From: an uncultured delta proteobacterium | Lineage (GTDB): Bacteria; Desulfobacterota; Binatia; Binatales; Binataceae | Length of the DNA: 64,000 nucleotides | Assembly (NCBI GenBank): GCA_963721485.1 | Contig: CAVRJV010000014.1 | Span: 139,134-203,133, forward strand | Reading direction: 5' to 3' | Shown here: one piece after another, positions 1 through 46,941 of the stretch | Layout of the letters: each line of letters starts with the position of its first letter | How positions within the stretch are numbered: the first letter of the stretch is position 1 | Translations under genes and position numbers: made by a program | The notes under the pieces: model-generated | Told to the model about the DNA's origin: nothing | Seen by the model: the letters and a program-made list of their open reading frames with translations, nothing else | The model's database searches: none

Positions 1-174
1 GGCGTGGCCGGGATATTCGCCGACCAACAACTCGTCCGAGATCACGCTGACCGACGGGCGCCGGCTCGTTGCGAGTCGGGCGCGCTGCGTGGTCGGAGCG
101 CTTGCTGAACCAATCAACCATGATTCAAATGTAACCATCTGGCGGGTAGGTATTCCAGCGGGGCATCAATGACG

Positions 175-2898
175 TCAGCCAGCTTCACGCTTTGGCATGG
201 CCCCGATGTCGCTCTGGCGAATCTCGGTTCTGGAGCTGGCACGCTTACCGGGATCTGTTCCGTTCGAGGTCGCGGCGTTCGCGGACAACGCGATTTTCGA
301 GCGGGAACCCGAAAGCGCGATGACCGCCGCGCGCATCGAGTCCGCAATTTTGCGATAGGCGCCGGCGCCTTCCGAACTCTCCGCAATTTCGCGAAGCTCG
401 GCCGCCGTGATCGCGCGACCGATGCGCACTTCCACCGGATGCCGCCGCGGGATGAGACTGCCTTTGCCCATCACGTCGTGCGTGCCGCGAATGGACACCG
501 GCAGCACGTCGCATCGGCTGCGCAGCGCCAGGAATCCCGCGCCGCTCTTGAACTCGTGAATCGCGCCGTCGGCAGAGCGCGTGCCCTCGGGGAACATCAG
601 CACGCTGCGTCCCTGCGCCAACTCGCCGAGCGCATCCTCGAGCGATTCGAGCTGCGCGCGCTCGCGATCGAATGGCATCATCGAGGTGAAGTTGGCCGCG
701 AGGAAGCGCCGCGCTGGTGTGTTGAAGAAATAATCCCTCGCCGCGAGCACGCGGAGGTCGTCGCCGATCGCGCCGAGCGCGTGGCCGACCAGGCTGAAGT
801 CGAGATGACTGGAATGATTGGCGACGACGATAAAGTTGCGATTGGCAGGGACGTTGCCGCGCCCCAGGATTTTCGGCTTCAGCCATCCGTCGAAAATTGC
901 ACGCTCCGCCCCGCGCACCGCAAAGCGGCCGAGCCATTTGAGCGGCGCCGGCAGGTGCAGTGTGTAAGGCTCGGCGAACTTGGCGTACGAGGGCATGCGA
1001 CGCACGGCCGTTGCTGCCGGGTTGCGCCGCGAGGAGCTGCAGATCCGCGACGGTGCGCAGATCCGCGATTTCCTCCGGCGCAATCTCGCGGCTCGCGCGC
1101 TCGCCGATCAGCTCGCCAATTTCCGCCAGCGCGAGCGAGTCGAGACCGAGATCCTCGATCAGCCGCGTCGCCGGCGCGATGTTGACAGGCTCGCTGGCGA
1201 TCGATGCGAGCGCTTCCGCCAGCCACGTCTCAACCTCGGAGTTGGCACTATCGGCGGACGAGTCTTTAGGGCGAACGTCGACCATCCGCCGCAGCGTCGC
1301 GGCGACGTCGGTGCGTTTGATCTTGCGAGTGCGCGTGCGCGGCAGTTCGAGGTCGGTGAAGCGGAGAATCCGGATCCGCTTGTGCGCGCTGAGCTCGCGC
1401 GCGAACTTGTCGAAGTCAGTGCGCAGCCGATCTTCCACCGCGCGGCGGCTCTCGCCGCGTGCATACGCGGGCACCACCAGCGCCGCGACCTGCTCGCCCT
1501 GTCCGACCTTCAGGCCGACCACCGCCATCTCCTTGACGTACTGCGAACGGCCATAAATCTCCTCGAGCTCTTCGATGTAGATGTTGTTGCCGCCCGAATC
1601 GACGATGACTTCCTTGGCGCGCCCGACGATGTAGAGGCGGCCATCGTCGTCGAAGCGCCCGAGGTCGCCGGTGTGCAGCCAGCCGTCGCGTCAGCACTTC
1701 GGCGGTCGCGGCCTCGTTGCGATAGTAGCCCGCCATGACGTTGGGCCCGTGCGCGACGATCTCGCCGATCGATCCGGTCGCGGGCATCAGCTTGATCTCG
1801 ACGCCGTTCAGCGGCCTTCCGACTGCACCGGCCTGCAGCGGCTCGTCGGGCCGCGCGACGGACAGCACCGGCGCAGCTTCAGTCAGGCCGTAGCCTTCGA
1901 GCAGCGGGATGCCGATGTCGTTGAAAAACTCGGCGACGCGATGGGGCAGGGCGGAACCGCCGCTGACGGCGAGCCGCAGGCGTCCGCCGAGCGCGCCATG
2001 AACCTGCCGGAAAACGATCGAGCCGAAGTTGAGGCCCGAGTTCGAGTCGAGACGCCGATTCAGATCGCGCAGATTGTCGAAGGCGGCGTGAAAGAACGGG
2101 CCGCGCGCTTCAACCTCGTCGACGATGCGGCGATGGACCGCCTCCCACACCGCGGGCACTCCGATCAGCGCGGTCGGGCGCACATCGGCGAGCGTGCGCG
2201 ACAGCGTCTTCGCATCGACTCCGAGTGGATAGACAATCGTCGCGCCGCTCGCGAGCGGCAGCAGCATCCCGCAGGTGAACTCGAAGGTGTGATGCAGCGG
2301 TAGCAGCGACAGCACCACGTCGTCGGCGCCGAGCACGAAGACGCGCGCGAGCATCGCGATCTCGGCGGCGAAGTTGCCGTGCGTCAGCATCACGCCCTTG
2401 GGCGCGCCGGTGCTGCCCGACGTGAACAGGATCGACGCGAGCGCTTTTCGCTCGGGCGGCGCCGGCGGAGTCTTCGCGTCGCCGCGCAAAATGAACGGAC
2501 GCGCGAGCTCGGCGAGGTCGAGCTCGATGAGCTTCGGATGTGCGTCGCCAAGCGCGGAACCGAGGCGCTTGTGGACCGCGCTCGAGCGCAGCGCGGCGGC
2601 CGGCTCGGCGATCTTGCAGATGGGCGCCAGCTCTTCGGCGGAGATCAGACTGGTCGAGCGGCACCGCGATCGCGCCAGCGCACAGGATCGCGAAGTAGGC
2701 CAGCACCCAATCGGGCGAGTTCTCGCCGATCAGCAGCACGCGATCGCCCGGCTTGATCCCGCGGGTCGCGAGCAGCAGCGCCGCGCGATGCGCGCGGTCG
2801 CGCAGTTCGCGATACGTCGTTTGCGTCTGCTCGCCGGACGGCCGCCGCGCAATCATCGCGACGCGCGCGCCGTAGCGGTCGGCGGCGCGGTCGAGCAT
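175..2898 (-). CDS. multidomain protein: fatty acyl-AMP/CoA ligase - acyl carrier protein - 1-acyl-sn-glycerol-3-phosphate (lysophospholipid) acyltransferase, ElbD-like; frame interrupted several times
   Basis: Reading 2898->175, ORF 2110-2898 gives the ligase N-terminus ([18 protein letters not shown]...). ORF 1416-2489 carries the AMP-binding core ([25 protein letters not shown]) and ORF 245-1528 the ligase C-terminus ([10 protein letters not shown]) followed by an ACP motif ([11 protein letters not shown]). ORF 175-1083 is a PlsC-type acyltransferase (NHSSHLD and FPEGTRS motifs). The pieces sit in different frames, consistent with indels. Confidence 0.7.
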
Positions 2899-2949
2899 AT
2901 CGACGCAGACTGCGATGGCGCGGCAGCGACTTGGTTCGGCCGCGCGTAT

Positions 2950-4514
2950 GCAGATCGAGCTGCGGAAAAATGTGGCGGCGCAGTCCGGGCAGATGAATGT
3001 TGATCCAGTAGTCGTGCCAATCGATCAGGTCGGGACGAAACGGATGATGCTCGGCGTCGGCCGGCTTGAGCGACGCATAAAGCGCGCGAATGTTGCCTGC
3101 GTGAAAGGTGTAAACCAGCTCCTGGATATACGGGCGATAGACCTCGACCAGTTCGCGCGCGAGATCTGTATTCTCCTTGAACTTGTCGATCCCGGCCTCA
3201 ATCTTTTTCGCGCGCTGATTCTCCTCGCCCACGACGCTGCGCGCGAACGCCGCCGCCTGCTTGAGAATCTGCGGAAGCCGTGTTGCTGGCGAGGTCGTAA
3301 GTGTTCTGCGAGACGACGACGGCTTCCAGATGCGGGCCCAGCCAGCGCATCGTGCCAGCCGTCCTTGCGATGCTCGCGGCGATTGCTGAGCGCAGTCAGC
3401 TCGACCAGCCGGCGCATCGGCAGCGGATTCCGATCCGAAGTGCAGAGCTGGTAGATGGGCTTGTGCCGGCGCGACAGCAGCGCGGCGAGAATCGGAACCA
3501 TCGCATGCGCGGCGAGATCGACCGGGATCACGTCGAGCACCAGCTCCGCGCTTGGCGGGATAGAAGCGGTAGCCGCGGCCGGCGAGGTAAGTCAGCGGCG
3601 CGCTGGTGTTGACGCCCTGGTTCCATCCGGGGAACGGATCGCGCAGCGCGCTTTCGATCACCGCCGGGCGCACGACCGTGACGTTGAGCGTGTCGCGATC
3701 CGCGAGCACCAACTGCTCGCCGAGGCTCTTGGTGTAGCTGTACGTGTTGGGCCATCCCCAACTCTGCGCGCGCTTGCGGCCGACTTCCTTGAGGCGCTCC
3801 TCGACCCATTGCTTGCGCCGATGCTCGACTGGCGGACTCGCGCGGATTGCCGTCTTCGTCGGATTCGTCGCTCGCGAAACTCGGCGTGACGCAATTGATC
3901 GCGCGATTCGGCCTGCACTGCGCTCGATTGCCGCCAGCGCGTCGCGAATCTCGCGCTCAGGTTGAAAGATTTGCGGCCGATCGGGACACCAGTTCTCCGG
4001 GATGTCGTCTTCGTAGCGATGGCCGTCGGCGATGCCCGCGACGTAGCAGGTCGAGACGTGCATCATCGCGGCGCCGACTTTGTGGCAGAACTCGATGACG
4101 TTGGCGACGCCCGGTCGTGTTGACCTCGATCGCCTTTTCCAGCGACGCCTCGAAATTCACCAGCCCCGCGCAATGCACGACCGCGTCGAGGCTGCCCGGC
4201 TTGAACGGCTTCGCTTCGTCGCCGAGCAGGCCGTCATTGGTGATGTCGCCGGGAACGACGACGATCTTTTCTTCGATGTAGCGGTCGAACTTGTCGCCGA
4301 GATGTTCGCGCAGCGGGCCGAACACCGGCGAGTCGAGAATCTCGCGGCGAAAGCGGCTGAGGCTGCTGCGCCGGTCGCCGCGAATCAGCAGGTAGACGCG
4401 CTCGATCTCGGGATGCCATCGCAGCAGAATCGACAGAAACACTTTGCCGAGAAATCCGGTCGCGCCGGTCAGCAGGATGCGACGGCCCTTGAGCACCTGT
4501 TCGAGCGGCGGCAT
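2950..4514 (-). CDS. fatty acyl-CoA reductase (NAD(P)-binding, FAR/male-sterility family); frameshifted; possibly fused to the downstream ligase-ACP-acyltransferase
   Basis: The N-terminus [24 protein letters not shown] (Rossmann GxxGxxG) lies in the tail of ORF 3957-6842, with ATG at 4512-4514. The gene continues in ORF 2645-4066 ([18 protein letters not shown] = YxxxK catalytic motif) and ORF 3025-3540 ([13 protein letters not shown]). A FAR C-terminal segment ([16 protein letters not shown]...) reappears in the 2645-4066 frame. The 3' end is uncertain. Confidence 0.65.
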
Positions 4515-4546
4515 CGAGTCGAGCGGTGCCGTTGCGTTTGCCGTTG

Positions 4547-6188
4547 CTACTCGACATCGGCGATTACCAGCGGCGGCAGGTGCAGGTAGGTTATCGACGC
4601 CGAGCGCCCGAGCTCCGAGGTCGCCATCGCGATTGCTTCGTCGAGCGTGTCGGCCGCTTCCCATCCGAGCCGCGCCGCGACTTCCGGCTCCTCGCATCCC
4701 GCCGCGATCACGCGGCCGACGTGCTGGCGCGCCGGCTCGCCCCAGTACCACATGTAGAACGGATGCACGCCGTGGTACGCGTTGCCGTAGCGGTACATGT
4801 GGATGTAGGTCGGGTTGCGCGCGAACTCGCGCTCGAAAGTTTTCTCGAGCTCGACCGCGTCGGTCGTCTCGGCGAGGCATCGATGGAAAAACTCGATGTA
4901 ACTCGGATGATGCTCGGGGTGGAATTCGTCGCGCAGCGGATGACAGATGATCATCGTGCCGCCTTCGCGCACCAGCGGCTTGTTCCGATACATGTTGAAC
5001 AGGTAGCCGAGGCCGGTGCACTGCACGAGCACCGGATTCATGATCGAGTTGACGTTGTAGGGACAGATGTACGGCACGCCGACGATCAGGATGTCCGCCT
5101 GGCCCTTCACCGGCACCGCGTACTGCTGGAACACTCGCGCCAGCGCCTTCTGATGCACCGCCTCGGTGTCTCCCGCCCACACGCCGATCATTCCGTACGG
5201 CGCGGCGTAGTTGTGCAGCACGGTGCGGCGCATCTCGCTCGACATGTTGCGCATCGTCCACTGAAAGCCCTTCAGCCGCGTGCGATCCCAATCGGTGAAG
5301 TGGTCCTCGTTCTTGTGCAGGAAGTCGAGCATCCCGCCGTACATGCGGTTGTTGACGGCCGTCTCGATCTGAAAAATGTTGACCGACTCGTGAATCAGCT
5401 TGCCCATCCGGTCCGACGAGCGATGCAGCGCCGAGCGCGTCGGGTCCATGTACGAGTGCGAATCGCGCAGCGTGCCGACGTTGTGGTGATGGCGCAGGCT
5501 CTGATACGGCGCGAGCCCGACCGCGACCGACTTGTGCCCGCCGTCCATCGGCACCAGGTTGATGTTGAGATAGATGAGCAGGTCGGACTCGGCCGCGCGG
5601 CGCGACAGCCAGACTTCCTCGCCATGCTCGGTCTTGCCGAGCATCGCCAGCTCGGCGCGATTCTCGGCGTCGAAGTTGTACAGCCGGTCCGGCCAGTACT
5701 GCTTGAACGCGCGCTCGCCGACCACGCGGCGAATTTCCGCTTCCGTCATCCGCCGATGGAGCGAGGTCGCGATGATCAGATGCACGTCGTCGACGCCGTA
5801 GTCGGCGAGCGTCTGCAGCACCTGGTTGAGCAGGCGCTCGCGAATGTCGGGCCGGCGCATCTGCGGCAGCGGCAGGCTGATATCGTCGATCGCGATCGTC
5901 ACGCGCATGTTGGGACTTGAGCTGCGCGAACAGCGGGTCCTGGTTCTCCGGATGGAGCAGGGCATAGCGAATCGCTTGGTCGGGGTCGGCGAGCGGATCC
6001 AGCGGCGGCGGCGGATAGATGACGCGGGTGCCGACCGGCAGCTTCTCGAACAGAAATTCGTCGCCGTAGGGAATGATGCGGCGCTCGGAGCGTCGATTGA
6101 CCTTGACCACCAGGTCGCTGCGCGCGCCGACTTCGTGCCGCAGCTCGGCGGTTTTAAGTTCCTTGAGTTTGGCTTCAGGCCGCGCCAT
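4547..6188 (-). CDS. LarA-like / DUF2088 (lactate racemase N-terminal domain family) protein; one frameshift near 5915
   Basis: The N-terminus [12 protein letters not shown]...[55 protein letters not shown] (ATG 6186-6188) lies inside the 3957-6842 frame. The body [14 protein letters not shown]...[22 protein letters not shown]...[16 protein letters not shown] lies in frame 4547-6880. The overall architecture matches the LarA family. Confidence 0.55.
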
Positions 6189-6189
6189 C

Positions 6190-6990
6190 CGAGCCTCGCG
6201 TCGATCGTTCGTTGTCGTGGTTGAGTTCCAGGTCTGTTGTCGAAATCGTCGAGCTGCTGCGTATCCGAGGCCTTCTCGAAATGGATCACCGGCCATTGCC
6301 GGCTGAGCGCGGCGGCGCGCAATCTGCGGTCGGGGTTGACGGCGACCGGATGTCCGAGCGCGGCGAGAAACGCGGTGTCGTAGTGCGAGTCGGCATAGCC
6401 CCAGCAATCCGCGAGATCGATGTCGTGCTCGGCGGCGTAGTCTGCGCACCAGACGGATTTTTCGTCGCCCGCCATCACAGGTTCGGCGAGACGGCCCGTC
6501 GCGCGGCCGCGGCTGAAGACGAATCGGTTGGCGGCGAAGTCGGCGATGCCGAGATGACGCGCGAGCGGCGCCACGATGAAGTCCGGCGAGCCGGTGACGA
6601 GCACCGGCTCGATTCCGGCCTCGCGATTTGCTTCGATCAATTCGACTGCGCGCGGAAACAGATGGCCGATGAGGATGCGCTCGCAGTATTCCTCGCCGAG
6701 CGAGAACAGGCGGTCGCGCGAGACGCCCTTGAACGCCTCGAACAGGACTGTGTTCAGCAGCCGGCGGTCGCGCTGCTCGGCGATATACAAGCGCGGGATT
6801 CGCGCGGCGAAGCCGAGCAGGTAGGAGACGCGCCCGGTCCATTCGCCGACGTTGGCGAGGGTGAAAATGGCGGCATGCACGAGGTTCAGATCGACCAGCG
6901 TGCCGTCGAGATCGTAGAAGGCGGCGCGGCGCTTCGAGGCCTTGGCGGGCGTGCGAGTTGGAGCGTTTTCTTATGAGTGTAAACTGACAT
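6190..6990 (-). CDS. HAD-superfamily hydrolase, subfamily IB (phosphoserine-phosphatase-like)
   Basis: ORF 4547-6880 begins [13 protein letters not shown]...[24 protein letters not shown]...[28 protein letters not shown]. The HAD motif I ([12 protein letters not shown]) is found just upstream in the same frame. A possible ATG at 6988-6990 is in the -1 frame, implying an indel. The 3' end is not resolved. Confidence 0.5.
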
Positions 6991-7164
6991 GTCAGTCTAG
7001 TTTGGGCTCAAAAAAAGAGCTGCCGTTCGGAGCGGCTTCACCGCGTCGTGCGCGCAGCAAATTTCAGCAGCTCGGGACGCGCGACTCCGCTCAAGGCCGA
7101 AGTGCGAGAATCTCTTCGACCAGCGCCGCGATGTCGGTGGCGTTGCTGCGCGAGAGCATCCCGA

Positions 7165-7653
7165 TCACTTCCTTGATGCCGCCGAGGATGCGTAGGAGAC
7201 GGCGCGCGTGTCCGAGTTGCGCACCAGGTTCATCTCGATGCCGAGATCGAGCGAGCGCTTGATCAGCGCCGCGATGCGGTCGTAGAAATCCTGGATCTTG
7301 TCGTCGAGCTCGTGGTCGAAGCCGGTCGAATGGTTGAGCAGGATGTCGGTCAGCTCGCGCTCGGCGAGCACATAGCTCAGCACCCGGCTCAGATTCGCGC
7401 GCAATTGATCGACCGGGTCGGGCTCTCCCGGGCCTGGCCGCAGGCGCTGAATGCGATGCGTCAGCTCGGTGACGACCTGCTCGAGCAATTCCTCGAACAG
7501 GTCTTTCTTGTTCTGGAAATAAAGATAGAACGTGCCGCGCGCGATGCGGGCGCGGGCGATGATGTCCGCGACATTGGTCCTGTGATATCCCTTGCGCGCA
7601 AAGATGCGCTTGGCGTGGCGCAGCACTTGCGCGCGTCGGGCTTGGCGTTCCAT
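7165..7653 (-). CDS. TetR/AcrR family transcriptional regulator (C-terminus possibly frameshifted)
   Basis: The N-terminal helix-turn-helix region is typical of TetR: RAQVLRHAKRIFARKGYHRTNVADIIARARIARGTFYLYFQNKKDLFE. It is divergent from the PPOX gene. Confidence 0.8.
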   Translation of the reverse strand: MERQARRAQVLRHAKRIFARKGYHRTNVADIIARARIARGTFYLYFQNKKDLFEELLEQVVTELTHRIQRLRPGPGEPDPVDQLRANLSRVLSYVLAERELTDILLNHSTGFDHELDDKIQDFYDRIAALIKRSLDLGIEMNLVRNSDTRAVSYASSAASRK

Positions 7654-7748
7654 CGACGCGGTCTCCGTGCGGAAAGTTGAGCGTAGTGCGGGATACCGGG
7701 CAGTGTCAAATCCATAACGGGAGTGTTACGAAACTCGGAGGTGTTTGG

Positions 7749-8202
7749 ATGAGCGACTCGAAATTCTGGGAGAAGGTTCACGCGGCGGCGGCGAAGGCTA
7801 CGTGGGCATACCTGGCGACTGCCGTTGGCAGATCAGCCCAAGGTCCGCGTCGTGCATCCGGCGTTCGAGGGCGAGCGGGTGTGGGTCGCGACTGGACGCG
7901 CGTCGGCGAAGGCTCGGCATATCGACAAGAACCCCAAGGTCGAGCTCTTCTACCAGATCGGCGCCGACATGGTGCATCTGACGGTGACAGGCAAGGCGAA
8001 ATTTGTCGAGGATGTGGCGGAGAAAAAACGAATCTGGAACGGCAAGGTGTTCGACTACGATCTCTCGCAATTCTGGCCCGGCGGTCCCGAGTCGAAGGAC
8101 TTCGGCCTGATGCTGATAACGCCGGATCGCGTCGAGCTGACGTCTCTGGCCGAAATGACGACCGGAAAGAAGCCTGAGGTGTGGCGCGCGTCGGGGAAGT
8201 AA
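7749..8202 (+). CDS. pyridoxamine 5'-phosphate oxidase family (PPOX class, FMN/F420-binding; general stress protein 26-like); frameshift near 7830
   Basis: The N-terminus MSDSKFWEKVHAAAAKATWAYLATA (ATG 7749, GGAGG 9 nt upstream) is in frame 7677. It continues in ORF 7825-8202 (VVHPAFEGERVWVATG...FYQIGADMVHLTVTGKAKF). Confidence 0.7.
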
Positions 8203-8215
8203 CTCTTACGATTGT

Positions 8216-8345
8216 TTCCGCTTCCTTCGAGGGAAGGGTTAGGGGTTAGGCTCTTTGGCGCGAGCGCAGAATTTGGAATTTTGGAATTTGGTCCCCCCAC
8301 CCGCCGCGCGTGGACGCGCGTCGGCCTCCCCCCACGAACGGGGGA
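8216..8345. repeat. REP/BIME-like hairpin modules (cttccttcgagggaagg + gttagggg; cgcgcgtggacgcgcg; cctccccccacgaacgggggagg)
   Basis: This stretch consists of palindromic GC-rich modules. The 8293-8345 segment is about 80% identical to 56457-56525, and the hairpin plus 'gttagg' module recurs at 56336-56376 and 63809-63850. Confidence 0.6.
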
Positions 8346-8352
8346 GGCAATT

Positions 8353-8853
8353 TTAGCTGCGCACGCGTTCGCGGGCGAAGATTGCGCGCTCTTCGGCGGT
8401 CATCTTTTCGCGGATGCGCGAGCCTTTGCCGAGATGCCGATAGAGTCCGCCTTCCGAGAAGTATTCCTCGTACGGCTGAGCCGGGATCGGCTCCGGCGGC
8501 GGCGTGTCGGTGATCTTCACGCCGAGCACGTCCTCGACCAGGCTGCTGTCGTACATCCTGACGGCGTCGTAGTCCGTCAGCAGCGCGCATACCTCGACGC
8601 AGATGTAACATCCGATGCATTCCTGGAAGCGATCCTGCACCGGCTGCACGCCGCGCCCCGGCACCGAGCCGGGCGACAGGTACTCGATGCATTGCACGGG
8701 GCAGAACTCGGGACACTTGCCGCACGGGAAGCACAGGTTCACGTCCATGAACGCGACTTCGCGCGGGCGCTTTTTCTTTTGTCCGACTTCTTCGGGAGTC
8801 TCGGGGATGCGGTCTTCCTTGAGCCGGCGCTTGATGATGTCGATGGCGCTCAT
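8353..8853 (-). CDS. 4Fe-4S dicluster ferredoxin-type protein
   Basis: The 166-aa ORF carries two Cys clusters: CFPCGKCPEFCP and CIGCYICVEVC (CxxCxxCxxxCP type). Confidence 0.75.
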   Translation of the reverse strand: MSAIDIIKRRLKEDRIPETPEEVGQKKKRPREVAFMDVNLCFPCGKCPEFCPVQCIEYLSPGSVPGRGVQPVQDRFQECIGCYICVEVCALLTDYDAVRMYDSSLVEDVLGVKITDTPPPEPIPAQPYEEYFSEGGLYRHLGKGSRIREKMTAEERAIFARERVRS

Positions 8854-8909
8854 GCTTCTATTGTCACGCCATTTGAGCGCGCCCGGTCAAGCGGCCCGGC
8901 GAATCGCAC

Positions 8910-10540
8910 TTATCTGACGGCGAAGATGCGGCCGGTTGAGGTTCCGACGTAAAGCATCCCCGACGCCGACGATGCGGCCGTCGTGATCTTGCCGAAGCTG
9001 CGCGATGTCCATACCGGGCTGCCGTCACCCGCCAGTACCGCGCCCATGTCGCCCGCCGCCGCATCGAACACGCCGTCATAGCCGAGCACGACCACGCCGG
9101 CATCGCCCGGTTTCAGCGTCGAATTCTGTCCATCGGAGTTGCCCGTCGGCCGAGACTCCGTAGATCGCGTCATCGCCCGCGAAAATTGTTCCCGACGGAG
9201 CGACCGCCGGTCCCGCGGTTACCGAATGCGCGTAGCTCAAGTGCCACAACTGGTTGCCGTTGCTTGAATCGATCGCATACATGCCGCCGCCCGCCGATCC
9301 CGCGTACACGACATCGTCCGCAGTAGGCGACCGATCCGGAGAATCCGCCTTCGGGCTGGAACGTCCACAGCACCGCGCCGTCCGATGCGATCGAGTGACA
9401 GCGCCGCGCGAGGCTCCCACGACCACGCCGTCCGGCGTCGCCGCGGCTGTATTCACCGATCCGACACTCACGCGCCAGTTGAGAACCCCCGACGCGCTGA
9501 CAGACACCAGGTCGCCGCCGCCACCGAAGCGTAAATGGCGCATGATCGGCTCACCGCGAGCGGTCCCGCGCTCTCGCCAATTTCAAGATTCCACAGGACT
9601 GCCGCCGGCGGGACCAATCGCGGCGAGGGACGTGCTCGACGCCATCGCGATCACAGTGCCGTCGGGCAACACTGCCGGCGACGAGCCGTCGGCCTCGCGC
9701 CGCATGGTTTCCTTGCCGTTCGAATCCAGCCCGTGCAGCACGCCGTCACGCGTGATGAAGAATATCGAGTCCGTCGGGGCCCGTCGCGATTCTTCCGCGT
9801 ACCTCGGCGCCCGCATCGAAGGTCCACATCAGAACGCCCGCGCTGCGCGCCGACACGGCCGGCGTGCTTGCTCCTGCCGGCTCGACGGCGCCTTTGGGCG
9901 TCGAGGTAGCTGTCGGAGTAGCGGAGGGCTCGGACACAAAAACATCGTCCCGCCGCTCGACGGGCACGGGCAGGATGGGGCGCCGCATGAATTGACGTCG
10001 GTATAGACGCCGATTCCTACCTGCTGGCTGCTCACTCCGGAATTGCTGGCAAGGATGCAGACGCATCCCGCGTTTCCGGTTACGTAATTGGCCGCCAAGG
10101 TCGCCCGGACGGCTGCGCTTGCAGCATAGTGCTGTCCGTCGAACGTCCACAGGGTGGCCGATCCGGCCGTAATATCTCCGAATTTTACTTTCGTTTGCCT
10201 CGTGAACGTTCCGATCGCATTGAATGCGACTGTTCCGCCGGTCGGTACGCCGCTGGGTCCGGTCGCCACGATGTTGCTGCTGGTTGCGGCCGGGCGCGGC
10301 GTCAACGTTGGCGTAATAGTCTTGGTGGGCTTAGGAGTTTTCGTCGCGGGCGGCGTCGGGGTGAAAGTGGGCGAGACGGGGGCGCCGGTCGAGATCACAA
10401 TTGAATCTAGCTGGGAGTTGGGAGTCGCGGTTGCCGTCGGGCTGCTGCTGCCGCTGCCGCCGCAACTGAGCAATCCCTCCGAAAGCGAGCAACACAACCG
10501 GCGCGACCACCAGCAATCTGAGCCACCGCGATAACATCAA
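8910..10540 (-). CDS. secreted lipoprotein with Thr/Pro-rich linker and PQQ-like beta-propeller repeats; multiple frameshifts
   Basis: A signal peptide MLSRWLRLLVVAPVVLL (ORF 10331-10540) is followed by the lipobox LLSCGG and a TPTPPATKTPKPTKTITPTLTP linker (ORF 9829-10497). PQQ-type repeat segments follow (NGNQLWHLSYAHSVTAGPAV..., DGVLHGLDSNGKE...) across ORFs 9076-9543, 9583-9816 and 8910-9173. Confidence 0.5.
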
Positions 10541-20257: not shown

Positions 20258-20425
20258 CCGTGCGAACTTTCCGTGATCGCCGCGGTGGTCCGCTTCGCAT
20301 CGTCCCCGCCGCGATCCGTTCGATGTTCGATCGGGCAATCGGAACAGTCGTTCAGAGCGCCTCGTAAAATCGCCGCGCGTTTCTATCGACCCCGCCCATC
20401 ACTGTAAGCTACATATTGGATCGAG

Positions 20426-21572
20426 ATGGATCTCGAACTCACAGAAGCCCAGCGCGGCGCGCGCGACGTTGCCCGCCGCTTCGCGCGCGAGAAGCTCGGG
20501 CCGATCGGCGTCGAGGCCGACCGCTCGCATCGCTATCCCGCCGAGGCGATCGACGAACTGGCGCGGCTCGGCATGCTCGGCATCTTCATCCCCGAGCAAT
20601 ACGGCGGCGCCGGCCTCGATCATGTCGCGTATTCGCTGGTGCTCGAGGAGCTCGCGGTCGAATGCGCTTCGACCGCGGTCATCATGTCGGCGCATTGCTC
20701 GCTCGCGTCGTGGCCGATTCTCGGGCTCGGCACGGCGCAGCAGAAGAATCATTTTCTGCCGAAGATGGCGACCGGCGAATGGATCGGATGCTTCGCGCTG
20801 ACCGAGCCGCAGGCCGGCTCCGACGCCGCCGGTCAGAAGACGCGCGCGGTGCGCGACGGCGACTCGTACGTCATCAACGGCACCAAGAATTTCATCACCA
20901 ACGCGCCGCAGTCGAAGGTGGCGATCGTGTTCGCGATGACGCAGCCCGACAAGGGCCATCATGGCATCAGCGCGTTCGCCGTCGAGACCGGCACGCCGGG
21001 ATGGGCCGTCACGCGCGTCGAAGACAAGATGGGAATTCACGGTGCGCATAGCGCGCAGCTCGAGCTTCACCGACATGCGCGTGCCGCGCGAAAATCTGCT
21101 GCTCAAGGAAGGCGAGGGCTTCAAGGTCGCGATGAAGACGCTCGACGGCGGGCGCATCGGAATCGCGTCGCAGGCGATCGGAATCGCGCGCGCGTCGCTC
21201 GAGGCGTCGTTGAAGTACGCGCAGGAGCGGCAGACCTTCGGCAAGCCGATCGCGCAGTACCAGGCGATTCAGTGGAAGCTCGCCGACATGGCGGTCGAGA
21301 TCGACGCGGCGCGCCTGCTGACGCATCGCGCGGCAACGCTAAAGGATCGCGGCCAGCCGTGCACCAAGGAATCCGCGATGGCGAAGCTGTTCGCCGCCGA
21401 AACCGCGATGAAGTCCGCGACCGAGGCGGTGCAGATTCACGGCGGCTACGGCTACACCAAGGAGTTCAAGGTCGAGCGTTATTTCCGCGACGCCAAGATC
21501 ACGGAGATCTACGAAGGCACTTCCGAGATTCAGCGCCTGGTAATCGCAGGCAGCGTGCTCGACAACCGCTGA
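20426..21572 (+). CDS. acyl-CoA dehydrogenase (short/branched-chain type); frameshift near 21040
   Basis: ORFs 20426-21586 and 20961-21572 carry the motifs [41 protein letters not shown] and [11 protein letters not shown]. Confidence 0.85.
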
Positions 21573-21582
21573 GGTCAGTCCT

Positions 21583-23217
21583 GTGAGCAACAAAAAGCAA
21601 TGGCTCGAGACGACCTACAAGCAGGCGAGCGAGCGCCCGGTCCGCTTCTCGACCGTCTCCGACATGGAGATCGATCCGCTCTACACGCCCGAGGATGTGA
21701 GCGGCGCCTACGACGACGCGCTCGGCAATCCGGGCGAGTTTCCGTACACCCGCGGCGTATACGGCTCGATGTATCGCGGGCGCCTGTGGACGATGCGCCA
21801 GTTCGCGGGCTTCGGCCTCGCCGAGGACACCAACGCGCGCTTCCATTTCCTGCTCGGCCAGGGCCAGGACGGGCTCTCGACCGCCTTCGACATGCCGACG
21901 CTGATGGGCTACGACGCCGACCACGAGCGCGCGCGCGGCGAAGTCGGACGCGAGGGCGTCTCGGTCTCCACCGTCCACGACATGGCGACGCTGTTCGATC
22001 GGATCCCGCTCGACAAGGTCACCACCTCGATGACGGTGAACTGCTCGGCGTCGGTGCTGCTCGCGATGTACCTGGTGGTGGCCGAGCGCAACGGCATGCC
22101 GTGGGAGCGCGTCGGCGGCACGATCCAGAACGACATGCTCAAGGAGTACATCGCGCAGAAGGAATGGATTTGTCCGCCGCGTCCGGCGCTCAGAATCGTC
22201 ACCGACATGATCGAGTTCTGCGCGCGCAAGGTTCCGCGCTGGCACGCGGTATCGATTTCCGGCTACCACATCCGCGAAGCCGGCTCGACCGCGGTGCAGG
22301 AACTCGCGTTCACGATCGCCGACGGCATCTGCTACGTCGAGGAAGCGGTCAAGCGCGGGCTCGACGTCGACGAATTCGCGCCGCGGCTGTCGTTCTTCTG
22401 GAATCTGCACAACGATTTTCTCGAAGAGGTCGCCAAGCTGCGCGCCGCGCGCCGGATGTGGGCGCGAATCATGAAGGATCGCTTCGGCGCGAAGAATCCG
22501 AAATCGATGATGCTGCGGACGCATGCGCAGACCGCCGGCGCCTCGCTGACCGCGCAGCAGCCGATCAACAACGTCGTGCGCGTCGCGATCCAGGCGCTGG
22601 CGGGCGTGCTCGGCGGAATCCAGTCGCTGCACACCAACTCGATGGACGAGACGCTCGCGCTGCCGACCGAGCAGGCCGTGATGGTCGCGCTGCGCACGCA
22701 GCAGGTCATCGCCGAAGAGACCGGCGTCACCAACACGATCGATCCGTTCGGCGGCAGCTACGCGGTCGAGGCGCTGACCGACCGGATGGAGCGCGAGGCG
22801 ATCGACTATATCCGGCGCATCGACGAGATGGGCGGGATGGTCAAGGCGATCGAGACCGGCTATCCGCAGCGCGAGATCGCCGAGGCCGCATTCCACTTTC
22901 AGCGTCAGCTCGAACAGGGAATCAAGACCGTCGTCGGCGTCAACAAGTATTCGATTCCCGAGGAAATTCCGATCGCGACGCTGAAGATTGATCCCGAGAT
23001 CGAAGAGCGGCAGATTCAGCGCGTGCGCAAAGTCAAGCGCGAGCGCAATTCGGTCGCGGTCAAGGAAGCGCTCGCGCGCGTTTCCGAGGCGTGCCGCTCG
23101 GGCGAGAATCTGATGGGGCCGATTTGCGAGGCGGTGCGCCGCGACGCGACCGTCGGCGAAGTTTCAGATATCTTTCGCGCCGAGTTCGGCGTGTACACAG
23201 ACCCAGGCTGGATTTAG
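21583..23217 (+). CDS. acyl-CoA mutase large (substrate-binding) subunit lacking a B12 domain; methylmalonyl-/isobutyryl-CoA mutase family (IcmA-like)
   Basis: The ORF is intact at 544 aa and ends without a C-terminal cobalamin-binding domain. Its sequence ([26 protein letters not shown]...[19 protein letters not shown]) places it in the MCM-family substrate-binding barrel. Confidence 0.85.
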
Positions 23218-23220
23218 GCG

Positions 23221-23637
23221 ATGGCGGAAAAGAGACTCAGAATTCTGGTCGCGAAACCCGGACTCGACGGTCACGATCGCGGCGCAAAGATTATCGCGCG
23301 CGCGCTGCGCGACGGCGGCTTCGAGGTAATCTACACCGGGCTGCATCAGACGCCCGAGATGATCGCCGAGGCCGCCGTGCAGGAAGACGCCGACGCGGTC
23401 GGGCTCAGCGTGCTGTCGGGCGCGCACATGACGCTGTTTCCCGAGGTGATGCGCCTGCTGAAGGAGCGCGGCGCCGGCGACGTCGCGGTTTTCGGCGGCG
23501 GGATCATTCCCGACGACGACGCGGTGAAGCTCAAGCAGATGGGCGTGCGGCAAATCTTCACGCCCGGCGCGTCGACCGAAGACATCGTCAAGTGGGTGCG
23601 CGAGAATGTCGCGCGCCGCGCACTTAGGTTCCGATGA
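23221..23637 (+). CDS. cobalamin (B12)-binding small subunit of acyl-CoA mutase (IcmB-like)
   Basis: The ORF is intact at 138 aa. It carries the B12-binding Rossmann motif: [34 protein letters not shown], with DxHxxG. Confidence 0.85.
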
Positions 23638-24790
23638 ATTTCGATCTGACTGAAGAGCAGCGGCGCATCCGCGAAACGCTCACCGACTTTGCCGAGCGCG
23701 AAATCAAGCCGCACTCGACCAAGTGGGACAAGGACGAGACCTTCCCGCGGCATATCGTCGAGCAGCTCGGCCAGCTCGGCTTTCTCGGCGTCGCGTTCCC
23801 GGAGAAATTCGGCGGCGGCGGCGCGGATACGCTGTCGCAAGTGCTCGTCGTCGAAGGCCTCTCGCGCTTCGACGCGTCGATCGGCCTCACCTGCGCCGCG
23901 CACATGTCGCTCTCGACCGGGCACATCGCCGGGTTCGCCTCTGACGAGCATCGCGATCACTACGTTCCCGAGATGCTGCAGGCGAAGAAGCTTGGCGCAT
24001 GGTGCCTGACCGAGCCGAGCTCCGGCTCCGATGCGGCCGCGATGCATACCAAGGCAACGCGTGTCGGCGACAACTACTCGATCACCGGCTCCAAGATGTT
24101 CATCACCAACGGCACCGTCGCTGACGTGTACGTCGTGATGGCGATTACCGAGCAGGCTCGCGGGCGTGACGGCGTGTCAGCGTTCATCGTTGATCGCGGC
24201 ACGGCGGGACTCTCGAACGGCAAGAAAATCGAGAAGCTCGGTCTGCGCGCGTCGGACACCGCCGAAGTGATTTCGAAAACGTCACAGTGCCGGCGCGCAA
24301 CCTCGTCGGCGAGCTCGGCGCGGGCTATCGGCAGACGCTCAAGGTGCTCGAAGCGGGACGAATCGGAATCGCGGGATTCGCCGCAGGAATCGCGCGCGGC
24401 GGTTTCGAGGAAGCGCGCGCATACGCGCTCGAGCGCGGGCAGTTCGGCAAGAAGATCGCCGAGTTCCAGGCGATCCAGTGGATGTTCGCCGACATGGCGA
24501 CGCGAATCGACGCCTCGTGGATGCTGATCTGCCGCGCCGCCGCGCTCAGGGATGCGGGCAAGCCGTTCGCGCGCGAAGCCGCGATGGCGAAGCTGTTCGC
24601 GTCGGAAACCGCGATGTGGACGACGATCAAAGCCGTGCAGATTCATGGCGGCTACGGCTACGTCACCGATTTCCCGGTCGAGCGCTACATGCGCGACGCC
24701 AAGCTCTCGGAAATCGGCGAGGGCACCAGCGAAGTGCAGCGCATGATCATCGCCAAGTCGCTGCTGCGCGACGGCTACATGCCCGCCTGA
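23634..24790 (+). CDS. acyl-CoA dehydrogenase; frameshift near 24270
   Basis: ORFs 23634-24527 and 24287-24790 carry [39 protein letters not shown] and [14 protein letters not shown]. Confidence 0.85.
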
Positions 24791-29250: not shown

Positions 29251-29268
29251 CACGCAACTTCACTCGGT

Positions 29269-31817: not shown

Positions 31818-33750
<1,933 letters not shown>

Positions 33751-33800
33751 GCTCGTCGGCGTACAGCAGATTCGCGCGCGAGTCGCGCGGCGCAGCGACG

Positions 33801-40382: not shown

Positions 40383-40404
40383 GGCGGAGACGCCGCCGTT
40401 TAAA

Positions 40405-41049: not shown

Positions 41050-41054
41050 GGCAG

Positions 41055-42564: not shown

Positions 42565-42579
42565 CAGCCGCCTTGCCCC

Positions 42580-44193: not shown

Positions 44194-44258
44194 GGAGTAG
44201 ATCCCGGCGGCAGCTGAGTCGTATCGGGCGGGATCGGCGAATGCATGAACTCCACCAG

Positions 44259-44617
44259 CTAGAAATTCTGCGAAAGCTTGGGACCGTACCGGACCAGAAC
44301 CTCGACCTTGCGCACGTCGGGAAACATCCCCGACGCTTCGACATCCCGTTCCCATCGGAAGTCGGGGAATTCACCGGGGAAGGCCGCTTCGAAGTCGCCG
44401 CTGGTGATGCCGAGATCGGGAATCGCTCGAGCTCCGCTTCGGTCATCACCGCCTGCGCCAGCATCGAGGCGCGGGTCGACTGCTGAGCGCGTATCACGGA
44501 TTGGATACTCTGATGTTGCAGGCCGAGCAGGCCGAGCAGCGCGATACCGAGGATCGCCATCGCGACCATCACCTCGAGCAGGGTAAATGCGCGCGCGCTT
44601 GTGCGAAGCGGATTCAC
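44259..44617 (-). CDS. gspI: type II secretion system minor pseudopilin I; frameshifted
   Basis: The N-terminus MNPLRTSARAFTLLEVMVAMAILGIALLGLLGL is a prepilin N-methylation-type signal. The C-terminus ...VRYGPKLSQNF* is recovered in another frame, with stop at 44259. Confidence 0.7.
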
Positions 44618-45219: not shown

Positions 45220-45232
45220 ACTGCCGTCACGG

Positions 45233-45646: not shown

Positions 45647-45684
45647 CGCCATTACCTCCGGCGCGTTCTTCATCTTTTCACTTC

Positions 45685-46914: not shown

Positions 46915-46941
46915 CGGTGAAAAAACTTAAGCGCGGGCGCT

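What the first reader, a model, noticed from the sequence alone, without database searches (positions are those of the whole stretch)
175..6990. Candidate bacterial ether-lipid (alkylglycerol/plasmalogen-type) biosynthesis locus: FAR + ligase-ACP-AGPAT multidomain enzyme (ElbD-like), with LarA-like and HAD partners
On one strand and tightly packed are four genes. (i) A fatty acyl-CoA reductase (2950-4514). (ii) A single long reading unit encoding an AMP-dependent ligase, an ACP with a DSL phosphopantetheine site and a PlsC-type acyltransferase with the HX4D motif (175-2898). (iii) A LarA/DUF2088-like protein. (iv) A HAD-IB phosphatase. The FAR + ligase + ACP + AGPAT domain set is what the multifunctional ElbD enzyme of Myxococcus uses for ether-lipid formation. 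This comparison rests on established knowledge recalled from memory, and the domain order is not verified. Here the FAR may be a separate or N-terminally fused module, since the FAR 3' end and ligase start lie within about 50 nt (2950 vs 2898). The nearby isobutyryl-CoA-mutase-like genes (21583-23637) would fit the supply of iso-branched chains, but that link is speculative.
Basis: partly seen in the sequence, partly recalled or inferred. Interest (0 to 1): 0.7.

Follow-up and report, generated by a model that had tools for sequence, protein, structure and literature searches.

The report
Binatus ether-lipid (elbBCD-type) gene cluster
This stretch holds a soil bacterium's (Candidatus Binatus) copy of the three-gene core that myxobacteria need to make ether-linked membrane lipids, so it is a new member of a known system; its middle gene is a nickel-cofactor (LarA-type) enzyme, which gives a testable idea for the unknown ether-forming step.

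Summary
On the minus strand of 185-6990 lie three tightly overlapping genes: a HAD-IB phosphatase (6990-6175), a LarA-superfamily protein (6188-4547) and one ~1450-aa protein with the domains FAR, AMP-ligase, ACP and PlsC-acyltransferase (4557-185). The apparent gap between FAR and ligase comes from a 1-nt insertion at 2904. The sequence carries 23 frameshifting 1-nt indels in 185-7653. With these removed, no internal stops remain, and synonymous differences to a close relative outnumber non-synonymous ones about 4:1, so they are sequence errors, not gene decay.

More than 120 full-length single-polypeptide homologues (69-91% identity) come from Candidatus Binatus and Binataceae. The gene order HAD, Lar_N, ElbD matches elbB-elbC-elbD of Myxococcaceae. 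A Corallococcus elbABCDE-type cluster has ElbD 39% identical over 1433 aa and ElbC 54% identical.

The "unknown" ElbC is a LarAH14/15/16-family protein. It keeps the Lys, His and Asp residues that hold the nickel-pincer cofactor, plus one catalytic His. It lacks the second His and the carboxylate-binding Arg.

There is no adjacent ElbE. The suggested link to the acyl-CoA mutase genes is unsupported.

Verdict: a new member of a known kind. Ether-lipid output is inferred, not shown.

The parts
185..4557 (-). ElbD-like multifunctional protein, about 1450 aa after removing 13 single-base insertions and 2 deletions. It is one polypeptide: FAR, AMP-ligase, ACP, PlsC-type acyltransferase.
   Evidence: There are no internal stops after correction. 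It is 94.5% identical in amino acids to P0001 of L001 and 39% identical, collinear, to Corallococcus ElbD.
2921..4557 (-). FAR domain of ElbD-like (NAD_binding_4 plus Sterile). It has the motifs TGATGFLG and YSYTK.
   Evidence: Pfam. Motifs were read in the corrected translation. 102 synonymous against 32 non-synonymous differences to L001.
1270..2906 (-). AMP-dependent ligase (acyl-CoA/acyl-ACP synthetase) domain. It has the motifs [17 protein letters not shown] and WLHTGDLG.
   Evidence: Pfam AMP-binding 269 bits and AMP-binding_C.
1030..1240 (-). Acyl carrier domain with the phosphopantetheine site LGLDSL.
   Evidence: Pfam PP-binding; corrected translation.
339..984 (-). PlsC/AGPAT-type acyltransferase domain with NHSSHLD (HX4D) and FPEGTRS.
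   Evidence: Pfam Acyltransferase, 83-86 bits.
4547..6188 (-). ElbC-like LarA-superfamily protein (546 aa; one inserted base at 5919). It overlaps the ElbD start by 11 nt.
   Evidence: NCBIfam NF052592 (LarAH14/15/16) scores 839.5 bits against a cut-off of 740, and Pfam Lar_N matches. The best solved relatives are the LarA-like NPN enzymes 9q2u and 9q3j.
6175..6990 (-). ElbB-like HAD-IB phosphatase (~270 aa; three inserted bases). It has the motif FYDLDGTL and overlaps the LarA-like start by 14 nt.
   Evidence: TIGR01490 scores 114.5 bits against a cut-off of 98.3, and Pfam HAD matches.
6992..7653 (-). TetR-family (weakly FadR-like) regulator directly upstream on the same strand. It is conserved in this position in Binatus relatives.
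   Evidence: L001, L002, L063, L072, L082.
1..121 (-). First ~40 codons of the DSP-family phosphatase gene that follows ElbD in relatives. The window ends inside it.
   Evidence: tblastn with the L001 protein; gene order.

Best explanation
Window 185-6990 is the core (elbB-elbC-elbD type) of an ether-lipid biosynthesis operon of a Candidatus Binatus bacterium (phylum Binatota). It is read here from error-rich sequence.

Proposed working:
- The ligase domain of the ElbD-like protein activates a fatty acid and loads it on its own ACP. This activity was shown in vitro for M. xanthus ElbD and is inferred here.
- The ACP-bound acyl group then has two fates. The PlsC-type domain transfers it to a glycerol-phosphate acceptor, or the N-terminal FAR domain reduces it to a fatty aldehyde or alcohol (inferred).
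- The LarA-type ElbC-like protein acts on a glycerolipid intermediate by hydride transfer, using a nickel-pincer cofactor and a single catalytic histidine. It is the best candidate for the still unknown step that replaces the sn-1 ester by an ether (inferred from conserved residues and gene neighbourhood).
- The HAD-IB phosphatase removes a phosphate from a lysophosphatidate- or phosphatidate-like intermediate (inferred).
- In intact Binatus relatives the operon continues just beyond the window edge with a DSP-type phosphatase, a phosphatidylcholine-synthase-like CDP-alcohol transferase and a DUF7064 protein. This points to a finished ether phospholipid.
- A TetR/FadR-like repressor heads the operon.
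For: Homology and architecture:
- More than 120 full-length homologues have the identical Pfam set, and the named ones are Candidatus Binatus or Binataceae.
- Pfam domain order in P0001 is NAD_binding_4 27-348, Sterile 461-525, AMP-binding 549-939, AMP-binding_C 990-1072, PP-binding 1105-1166 and Acyltransferase 1225-1349.
- All catalytic motifs are intact in the corrected window translation.

Synteny:
- TetR, HAD, Lar_N, ElbD, DSPc, CDP-OH_P_transf and DUF7064 occur in this order in intact relatives.

Link to the characterised system:
- Corallococcus L061 has epimerase, HAD, Lar_N, ElbD (1469 aa) and epimerase in order. This matches the published M. xanthus elbABCDE layout.
- Identity to the Binatus proteins is 39% for ElbD and 54% for ElbC.
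- Genetics summarised in PMC9131029: elbD disruption strongly lowers alkyl and vinyl ether lipids, and the ACS and ACP activities were shown in vitro.

ElbC-type LarA homologues travel with glycerolipid genes across phyla:
- HAD is adjacent in 55/75 loci, a FAR domain lies directly downstream in 37/74, and the full FAR-ligase-AT is present in 26/54.
- Alternative fusions occur beside Lar_N: FAR+AT and FAR+HAD. PlsY, a DAGK-like kinase and a CDP-alcohol transferase are found in the Terriglobia form.
- The same COG associations are tabulated for LarAH groups 14-16 in Desguin 2020, Table S1.

Cofactor site:
- Asp (LarA D72) is present in 88/88 sequences. His108, Lys184 and His200 equivalents are each present in 86/88. 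The Arg75 position is always hydrophobic, and there is no His at the His174 position.

Selection:
- 325 synonymous against 79 non-synonymous differences in ElbD, with the same pattern in each domain.
Against: - No lipid data exist for any Binatia, and the function is transferred across phyla at 39% identity.
- In M. xanthus the FAR and acyltransferase activities of ElbD could not be shown in vitro.
- No ElbE/ElbA-type NAD-epimerase is adjacent in Binatus or present in the window, although elbE disruption lowers ether lipids in M. xanthus.
- The role proposed for ElbC has no experimental support. LarAH14 of Frankia, from the same family, showed no activity on the substrates tested.
- Two distant family members still next to FAR/HAD (P0133 in L006, P0147 in L007) lack the Lys and His.
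- Nickel-pincer biosynthesis genes (larB, larC, larE) were not seen in the window, and the rest of the genome could not be searched.
Confidence: 0.7

Rival explanations
1. The cluster makes fatty alcohols or aldehydes and ordinary ester glycerolipids (or wax-type neutral lipids), not ether lipids. ElbD-like would work as an Aas-like acyl-ACP synthetase/acyltransferase with an attached reductase. The HAD and LarA-like proteins would serve some other modification.
For: - The ligase plus acyltransferase parts also hit the Aas model NF006386 (209 bits, far below its cut-off of 1221).
- FAR enzymes make wax-ester precursors elsewhere (PMC11948995, listed).
- The FAR and AT activities of M. xanthus ElbD were never shown in vitro.
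- In Acidobacteriota the link between elb genes and ether lipids is unproven.
Against: - No wax synthase/DGAT gene is present in the window or in the Binatus loci.
- The four-domain order and the HAD and Lar_N partners are those of the only genetically tested system, in which loss of elbD removes ether lipids.
- The downstream genes are phospholipid head-group genes, not neutral-lipid genes.
Confidence: 0.17
2. The locus is a decayed pseudogene array. The many frameshifts are real and the pathway is dead in this organism.
For: There are 23 frameshifting indels in 7.5 kb, and 8 of them fall within 3000-3999, inside the FAR domain.
Against: - The same kind of 1-nt insertion breaks unrelated neighbours (TetR, PNPOx, PQQ protein).
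- No stop codons remain once the indels are removed.
- Synonymous changes outnumber non-synonymous ones in every domain, including FAR (102 against 32).
- Amino-acid identity to an intact relative is 94-98%.
Confidence: 0.03
3. The LarA-like gene is an ordinary 2-hydroxyacid racemase/epimerase that sits next to the lipid genes by chance and has no part in the pathway.
For: NCBIfam names the family 'NPN-dependent hydroxyacid isomerase'. All characterised LarA homologues act on 2-hydroxy acids (PMC11770544 and PMC7583248).
Against: - The adjacency to HAD, FAR and acyltransferase genes is kept in Binatota, Myxococcota, Acidobacteriota, Chloroflexota, Gemmatimonadales and Planctomycetota. It persists through different gene fusions (Table S1).
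- The start and stop codons overlap with both neighbours in the window.
- The Arg that binds the substrate carboxylate in LarA is replaced by Leu/Val/Met in all 88 sequences, and the second catalytic His is missing.
- Frankia LarAH14 was inactive on the substrates tested.
Confidence: 0.07

Closest known systems
Myxococcus xanthus elbABCDE operon with ElbD (Lorenzen et al. 2014, as described in PMC9131029 and PMC13012113); compared directly with the orthologous cluster of Corallococcus terminator (L061)
   Same: - ElbD has the same four domains in the same order in one polypeptide.
- It is preceded by a HAD phosphatase (ElbB) and a Lar_N protein (ElbC) on the same strand.
- Homology is end to end (39% for ElbD, 54% for ElbC, about 39% for ElbB).
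   Different: - Binatus has no flanking NAD-epimerase genes (ElbA/ElbE).
- Instead a TetR regulator lies upstream, and a DSP phosphatase, a Pcs-like CDP-alcohol transferase and a DUF7064 protein lie downstream.
- The organism belongs to a different, uncultured phylum.
elb-like clusters of Acidobacteriota and Poribacteria, including the split-elbD variant (preprint 10.64898/2026.06.23.733905; Terriglobia locus L036)
   Same: The same parts list is present: FAR, ligase, ACP, acyltransferase, HAD and Lar_N. In both cases the capacity is predicted and not proven.
   Different: In L036, FAR is a separate 525-aa protein and the second protein reads ACP, ligase, AT. PlsY, ElbE and a DAGK-like kinase are included. 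In Binatus the four domains are fused as in myxobacteria.
AGPS route of eukaryotes and of M. xanthus MXAN_1676-1674 (FAR, GNPAT, AGPS, acyl/alkyl-DHAP reductase)
   Same: It uses a fatty acyl reductase plus a glycerol-phosphate/DHAP acyltransferase. FAR-acyltransferase fusions occur in both (MXAN_1675; the L005 protein of 791 aa).
   Different: No AGPS-like gene was noticed in the window translations or listed in the related loci. A LarA-type protein occupies the cluster instead. The ether-forming chemistry of the ElbD route is unknown.
LarA superfamily: LarAH14 of Frankia, and the single-histidine LarA-like enzymes of Streptococcus plurextorum and Blautia wexlerae (PDB 9q2u, 9q3j; PMC12611868)
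   Same: It has Lar_N and a C-terminal domain. The Lys that tethers the nickel-pincer cofactor, the Ni-binding His, the ribose-binding Asp and one catalytic His are kept. The second catalytic His is absent.
   Different: - The 9q2u/9q3j subfamily has Asn at the His174 position, Lys at the Arg75 position and a carbohydrate gene context.
- The ElbC type has Asn or Val (depending on the alignment) at the His174 position, Leu/Val/Met at the Arg75 position and a glycerolipid gene context.
- Sequence similarity to 9q2u is remote (E 1e-28, about 25-30% identity).
Aas (acyl-ACP synthetase/2-acyl-GPE acyltransferase) and carboxylic acid reductase (CAR)
   Same: These proteins also combine an adenylating domain with an acyltransferase (Aas) or with a carrier and a reductase (CAR). 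Both models give partial hits.
   Different: The domain order and content differ: Aas is AT-ligase without FAR or ACP, and CAR is A-PCP-R without AT. Scores are far below both curated cut-offs (209 against 1221; 168 against 1300).

Membership tests
ElbD-type multifunctional ether-lipid enzyme | A single polypeptide with the domain order FAR (NAD_binding_4 + Sterile), AMP-ligase, ACP, PlsC/AGPAT acyltransferase | tested here: met
   Pfam on P0001. More than 120 single-polypeptide homologues cover 97-100% of the stitched query. The corrected window ORF has no stops.
ElbD-type multifunctional ether-lipid enzyme | End-to-end homology to the ElbD of a myxobacterial elbABCDE cluster | tested here: met
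   39% identity over 1433 aa, collinear, with the Corallococcus terminator ElbD-position protein. M. xanthus ElbD itself was not available.
ElbD-type multifunctional ether-lipid enzyme | Intact catalytic motifs in all four domains (GxxGxxG and YxxxK; adenylation core motifs; DSL serine; HX4D) | tested here: met
   [43 protein letters not shown] and FPEGTRS were read in the corrected translation.
elb operon (elbA-E) | elbB (HAD phosphohydrolase) and elbC directly upstream of elbD on the same strand | tested here: met
   HAD 6990-6175 and Lar_N 6188-4547 precede ElbD 4557-185 with overlapping junctions. The order is the same in L061.
elb operon (elbA-E) | elbE (and elbA), NAD-dependent epimerase/dehydratase genes flanking the cluster | tested here: not met
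   There is no such gene next to ElbD in L001, L002 or L072. tblastn finds no ElbE-like match anywhere in the window. A copy elsewhere in the genome cannot be excluded.
elb operon (elbA-E) | Required for formation of alkyl or vinyl ether lipids | not testable with these tools
   Genetic evidence exists only for M. xanthus. No papers on Binatia lipids were found.
LarA superfamily, LarAH14/15/16 family | Score above the curated cut-off of NCBIfam NF052592, with a full-length match | tested here: met
   839.5 bits against a cut-off of 740, covering profile positions 2-520 of 520. Pfam Lar_N scores 124 bits.
LarA superfamily, LarAH14/15/16 family | Residues that hold the nickel-pincer cofactor (Lys184, His200, Asp72 of L. 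plantarum LarA) and catalytic His108 | tested here: met
   K219, H235, D102 and H144 of the window protein align to these residues. They are conserved in 86-88 of 88 ElbC-type sequences.
LarA-type 2-hydroxyacid racemase/epimerase (classical mechanism) | Second catalytic histidine (His174) and the Arg75 that binds the carboxylate | tested here: not met
   There is no His in the [14 protein letters not shown] loop. The Arg75 position is Leu here and L/V/M/A/Y in all 88 sequences. Groups 14 and 15 are reported to lack His174.
LarA superfamily (cofactor supply) | larB, larC and larE present in the same genome | not tested
   None was noticed in the 64-kb window (translations; partial Pfam) or as a recurrent neighbour in 87 loci. 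Whole genomes could not be searched.
HAD-IB phosphatase (TIGR01490) | Score above the curated cut-off, with the DxDGT nucleophile motif | tested here: met
   114.5 bits against 98.3 for the L001 orthologue, which is 90% identical. FYDLDGTL is present in the window translation.
AGPS-dependent (eukaryote-type) ether-lipid pathway | An alkylglycerone-phosphate synthase gene | tested here: inconclusive
   None was seen in the window translations or in the Pfam-annotated neighbours of the related loci. The window was not scanned exhaustively and the rest of the genome is unknown.
   The generic MCM-family domains score well (TIGR00641 691 bits, TIGR00640 154 bits). The IcmF model is far below its cut-off (312 against 1500) and the MCM equivalog is below its cut-off (590 against 876). 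There is no positional link: the genes are ~15 kb away, on the opposite strand, with unrelated genes in between.

The most novel reading that the evidence does not exclude
The ElbC-type LarA homologue is the missing ether-bond-forming enzyme of the ElbD pathway, a functional stand-in for the flavoenzyme AGPS. It would use a nickel-pincer nucleotide cofactor in a redox-neutral 'borrowed hydride' reaction on a glycerolipid. One possible route: it oxidises the C2 hydroxyl of 1-acyl-glycerol-3-phosphate, the acyl group is exchanged for the FAR-made alcohol, and the hydride is returned. Another possible route: it oxidises the fatty alcohol, the aldehyde condenses with the glycerol hydroxyl, and the hydride is returned. 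This would be the first lipid substrate and the first non-racemase reaction for this cofactor. It would also make Binatia, which are common in soils and peat, an unrecognised source of bacterial alkyl ether lipids.
Probability: 0.2. Interest if true: 0.85.

Novelty: new member of a known kind. Interest (0 to 1): 0.5.

Why it matters
Non-isoprenoid ether lipids of bacteria are used as environmental and palaeoclimate markers, yet their producers and the aerobic ether-forming chemistry remain poorly known. This locus adds the uncultured phylum Binatota to the carriers of the myxobacterial elb core. No paper in the searchable library links Binatota with ElbD.

More generally, ElbC is still drawn as 'unknown' in reviews up to 2026. 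It belongs to the nickel-pincer LarA superfamily, in a subfamily that keeps the cofactor site but has lost the residues needed for hydroxy-acid racemisation. It is locked to reductase, acyltransferase and phosphatase genes in at least six phyla. That gives experimenters a concrete candidate for the step that has been open since ElbD was described in 2014. It also gives the LarA field a likely physiological context for its orphan groups 14-16.

Tried and rejected
- Separate FadD, PlsC and FAR genes: rejected. There is no stop after correction, and more than 120 homologues are fused.
- Pseudogene array: rejected on synonymous/non-synonymous counts and on the same errors occurring in unrelated neighbours.
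- Link to the acyl-CoA mutase cluster: no positional or functional support.
- Direct comparison with M. xanthus ElbD: the sequence could not be obtained with the tools.
A 5-sequence alignment worked.
I did not pursue it, since solved relatives are already found by sequence.
- Promoter/terminator scan of 1-8400: no promoter-like site, and terminator-like sites were not above the shuffles. Rfam found no hits in the whole window.
- Single-linkage clustering of ORFs from 87 loci merged the overlapping elb genes into one cluster. It was useful only for finding further recurrent neighbours (DAGK-like kinase, PlsY).
- One literature search was too broad to be useful. A search for LarC/LarE together with Myxococcus found nothing.
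- Whether larB/C/E exist in Binatus or Myxococcus genomes could not be tested.

Full report
**What is in the sequence**

The minus strand of window 185-7653 is densely coding, but every reading frame is broken.

I stitched the in-frame pieces by eye into a 1443-aa query. It found more than 120 proteins of 1438-1472 aa that cover 97-100% of the query at 69-91% identity. All carry the same Pfam set, and the named ones are from Candidatus Binatus or Binataceae. So FAR is the N-terminal domain of the ligase-ACP-acyltransferase protein, and the organism is a member of the Binatota (taxonomy).

**The frameshifts are errors**

I compared the window with an intact contig of a very close relative (L001, ENA ERZ27253762) using tblastn and a DNA alignment.

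- DNA identity is 88% overall, and corrected amino-acid identity is 90-98%.
- There are 23 frameshifting indels in 185-7653, of which 20 are single-base insertions. They are not tied to homopolymers.
- By gene: 13 insertions and 2 deletions in ElbD, 1 in the LarA-like gene, 3 in HAD and 4 in TetR. There are more in the unrelated PNPOx and PQQ genes next door.
- The apparent FAR/ligase boundary is one inserted G at 2904.
- After removing the indels, no internal stop remains. ElbD differs from L001 by 325 synonymous and 79 non-synonymous codons.
- The same bias holds in each domain, including FAR (102 against 32).

This pattern fits sequence error, not gene decay. The uneven spacing of the errors (8 in 3000-3999, none in 4531-5918) is unexplained.

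**Anatomy**

Gene limits from the comparison:

| Gene | Window coordinates (minus strand) |
|---|---|
| TetR-family regulator | 7653-6992 |
| HAD-IB phosphatase | 6990-6175 |
| LarA-superfamily protein | 6188-4547 |
| ElbD-like protein | 4557-185 |
| Start of DSP-family phosphatase | 121-1 |

- HAD overlaps the LarA-like gene by 14 nt, and the LarA-like gene overlaps ElbD by 11 nt. This suggests one transcript with coupled translation (inference).
- No promoter-like or convincing terminator-like site lies inside the cluster, and there are no Rfam matches.
- The domain order in the intact orthologue P0001 is NAD_binding_4 27-348, Sterile 461-525, AMP-binding 549-939, AMP-binding_C 990-1072, PP-binding 1105-1166 and Acyltransferase 1225-1349.
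- The corrected window protein keeps TGATGFLG and YSYTK (reductase); [17 protein letters not shown] and WLHTGDLG (adenylation); LGLDSL (carrier serine); and NHSSHLD and FPEGTRS (acyltransferase).
- The HAD protein passes TIGR01490 (114.5 against 98.3 bits) and has the FYDLDGTL nucleophile motif.

**Surroundings**

In intact Binatus relatives the order is PQQ propeller, ferredoxin, (PNPOx on the opposite strand), TetR, HAD, Lar_N, ElbD, [Zn phospholipase C in one genome], DSP phosphatase, CDP-alcohol phosphatidyltransferase, and a 596-aa DUF7064 protein.

The CDP-alcohol transferase is closest to phosphatidylcholine synthase models but far below their cut-offs. The window shares the upstream part of this order and ends just inside the DSP gene. 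So the operon probably runs on into head-group genes that lie outside the window.

**Comparison with the characterised system**

Published descriptions (PMC9131029; PMC13012113) give the following:

- M. xanthus elbABCDE encodes NAD-epimerase (ElbA), HAD phosphohydrolase (ElbB), a protein of unknown function (ElbC), ElbD (N-terminal FAR, then ACS, ACP, AGPAT) and NAD-epimerase (ElbE).
- Disruption of elbD strongly lowers alkyl and vinyl ether lipids.
- The ACS and ACP activities were shown in vitro. The FAR and acyltransferase activities were not.
- The steps from fatty acid to alkyl ether lipid remain unknown.

I could not obtain the M. xanthus sequences. A genome scan with an alignment of the LarA-like protein returned cultured Myxococcaceae. 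Corallococcus terminator (L061) has epimerase, HAD, Lar_N, a 1469-aa FAR-ligase-ACP-AT protein and epimerase in that order, which is the published layout. Its ElbD aligns with the Binatus protein over 1433 residues at 39% identity, without rearrangement. Its ElbC-position protein is 54% identical over 520 residues.

So the window carries an elbB-elbC-elbD homologue. The difference is that no ElbA/ElbE-type gene is adjacent in Binatus or present in the window.

**The middle gene**

The protein at the elbC position is a full-length member of NCBIfam NF052592, 'LarAH14/15/16 family' (839.5 bits against a cut-off of 740). [quoted passage not shown]

Alignments to those chains and to L. plantarum LarA place window residues as follows:

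| Window residue | LarA position | Role |
|---|---|---|
| D102 | Asp72 | binds the cofactor ribose |
| H144 | His108 | catalytic |
| K219 | Lys184 | cofactor tether |
| H235 | His200 | nickel ligand |
| Leu | Arg75 | carboxylate/phosphate-binding Arg in LarA |
| Asn or Val (depends on alignment) | His174 | second catalytic His in LarA |

Across 88 ElbC-type sequences from at least six phyla, Asp is present in 88/88 and His, Lys and His in 86/88 each. The Arg75 position is hydrophobic throughout (Leu, Val or Met in 86/88), and the His174 position is never a conserved histidine. This agrees with the report that LarAH groups 14 and 15 lack His174. Frankia LarAH14 was inactive on every substrate tested.

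More distant family members lose the Lys and His (alignment A1).

**Gene neighbourhood of the ElbC type**

The genome scan found at least 597 species genomes with this protein. Among the best 80 loci:

- a HAD gene is adjacent in 55 of 75 loci that could be assessed
- a FAR domain starts directly downstream in 37 of 74
- the full FAR-ligase-AT protein is present in 26 of 54
- an ElbE-like SDR is present in 37 of 54

Other arrangements keep the same parts:

- Chloroflexota: Zn-ADH, Lar_N, DAGK-like kinase, FAR+AT fusion, HAD, PlsY.
- One locus has a FAR+HAD fusion followed by Lar_N.
- Terriglobia: CDP-alcohol transferase, FAR, ACP-ligase-AT, PlsY, HAD, Lar_N, ElbE, DAGK-like kinase. This is the split-elbD form mentioned in the sponge preprint.
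- A Myxococcales metagenome genome has HAD, Lar_N, ElbD, ElbE.

Desguin et al. 2020 had already tabulated PlsC, HAD, thioester-reductase, acyl-CoA-synthetase and epimerase COGs around LarAH groups 14-16 in a supplementary table. Their text never mentions lipids. No paper in the searchable library connects ElbC with LarA/DUF2088, or Binatota with ElbD.

**How it most likely works**

Shown elsewhere and transferred here by homology: the ligase activates a fatty acid and loads the ACP, and elbD is needed for alkyl ether lipids.

Inferred from domain logic:

- The acyl-ACP is either transferred by the PlsC-type domain to a glycerol-phosphate acceptor or reduced by the FAR domain to an aldehyde or alcohol.
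- The HAD-IB enzyme dephosphorylates a lysophosphatidate- or phosphatidate-like intermediate.
- The downstream CDP-alcohol transferase and DSP phosphatase finish a phospholipid head group.

Inferred from residues and neighbourhood: ElbC binds a nickel-pincer cofactor and performs a hydride transfer on a non-carboxylate, probably lipidic, substrate using one acid/base residue.

The conserved parts around ElbC cover the signature steps of the eukaryotic ether-lipid route (FAR; GNPAT/AGPAT-type acyltransferase; an SDR or Zn-ADH that could serve as the acyl/alkyl-DHAP reductase, a comparison from my own knowledge of that route) plus a phosphatase. The one signature enzyme with no counterpart is AGPS. 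ElbC is therefore the best candidate for the ether-forming step. This last point is a hypothesis (I put it at about 0.2).

Counter-evidence to that hypothesis:

- Degenerate family members without the Lys and His still sit beside FAR and HAD genes.
- The cofactor biosynthesis genes could not be looked for outside the window.

**The mutase suggestion**

Window 20414-24787 (plus strand) encodes an acyl-CoA dehydrogenase, a split MCM-family acyl-CoA mutase (large subunit 21553-23172, B12 subunit 23263-23634) and a second acyl-CoA dehydrogenase.

- The specific substrate cannot be called from the models. IcmF scores 312 bits against a cut-off of 1500, and the MCM equivalog scores 590 against 876.
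- The large subunit has Gln where methylmalonyl-CoA mutase has the carboxylate-binding Arg207 (YIAQKEW). By my own knowledge this fits a non-carboxylated acyl-CoA substrate.
- The genes lie about 15 kb from the elb genes, on the other strand, behind SDRs, an aldo-keto reductase, UvrC and ComEC.
- Nothing ties them to the elb genes.

**Verdict**

This is a new member (a new phylum) of a known kind of system.

Production of ether lipids is inferred, not shown, and the lack of an adjacent ElbE is a real difference from the myxobacterial operon. The most useful by-product is the identification of ElbC as a cofactor-site-retaining LarA homologue, which makes the unknown step of the ElbD pathway testable.

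Noticed in passing
window 1-10400 (measured), probably the whole window: Single-base insertions break nearly every gene. There are 23 frameshifting indels in 185-7653 (20 insertions, 3 deletions), mostly outside homopolymers. Spacing is uneven: 8 in 3000-3999 and none in 4531-5918. The cause (read type or added noise) is unknown.
   Followed up: partly
window 20414-24787 (+): Acyl-CoA dehydrogenase, split MCM-family acyl-CoA mutase (large subunit 21553-23172, B12 subunit 23263-23634) and a second acyl-CoA dehydrogenase. The large subunit has Gln (YIAQKEW) where methylmalonyl-CoA mutase has Arg207, so the substrate is probably not methylmalonyl-CoA. No link to the elb genes was found.
   Followed up: partly
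window 39801-48612 (-): A run of type II secretion genes. Pfam gives T2SSE at 46945-47712, T2SSF at 45688-46881 and T2SSG at 45236-45604. Pseudopilin-like and GspL/M/N-like reading frames lie around them (the latter judged by eye only).
   Followed up: partly
window 28786-31701 (-): Circularly permuted ATP-grasp (31009-31359) and Alpha-E (29758-30039) domain genes. This is a pairing of unknown function that is widespread in bacteria.
   Followed up: no
window 31821-35634 (-): Two consecutive ABC exporter genes (ABC_membrane by Pfam at 34531-35121; Walker motifs seen by eye). Whether they move lipids is unknown.
   Followed up: no
window 7825-10305: PNPOx-like gene (7825-8202, +), 4Fe-4S ferredoxin (8353-8853, -) and PQQ beta-propeller protein (8910-10305, -). 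They are in the same order as upstream of the elb genes in the Binatus relatives L001 and L002. A strong bidirectional terminator-like hairpin lies at 8324-8348.
   Followed up: partly
L005 10592-12967; L007 5665-8004; L006 9584-13084: Alternative fusions lie next to the ElbC-type gene in other phyla: FAR+Sterile+acyltransferase (791 aa, like MXAN_1675), FAR+HAD (779 aa), and FAR+ligase without a detected acyltransferase (1166 aa). In L006 and L007 the LarA-like proteins (P0133, P0147) lack the cofactor Lys and His yet keep the neighbourhood.
   Followed up: partly
L001 10327-13423; L002 14371-18361 (just beyond the window's left edge): Downstream of ElbD in Binatus lie a DSP-family phosphatase, a phosphatidylcholine-synthase-like CDP-alcohol transferase (158 bits, below the cut-off) and a 596-aa protein with only a weak DUF7064 match. 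One genome has an extra Zn-dependent phospholipase C. These may complete the lipid head group.
   Followed up: partly
PMC12611868 compared with the chain 9q2u_A alignment: The paper names His221 as the nickel ligand of the S. plurextorum enzyme. In the aligned chain, the His at Lys195+16 is His211. The numbering discrepancy was not resolved.
   Followed up: no
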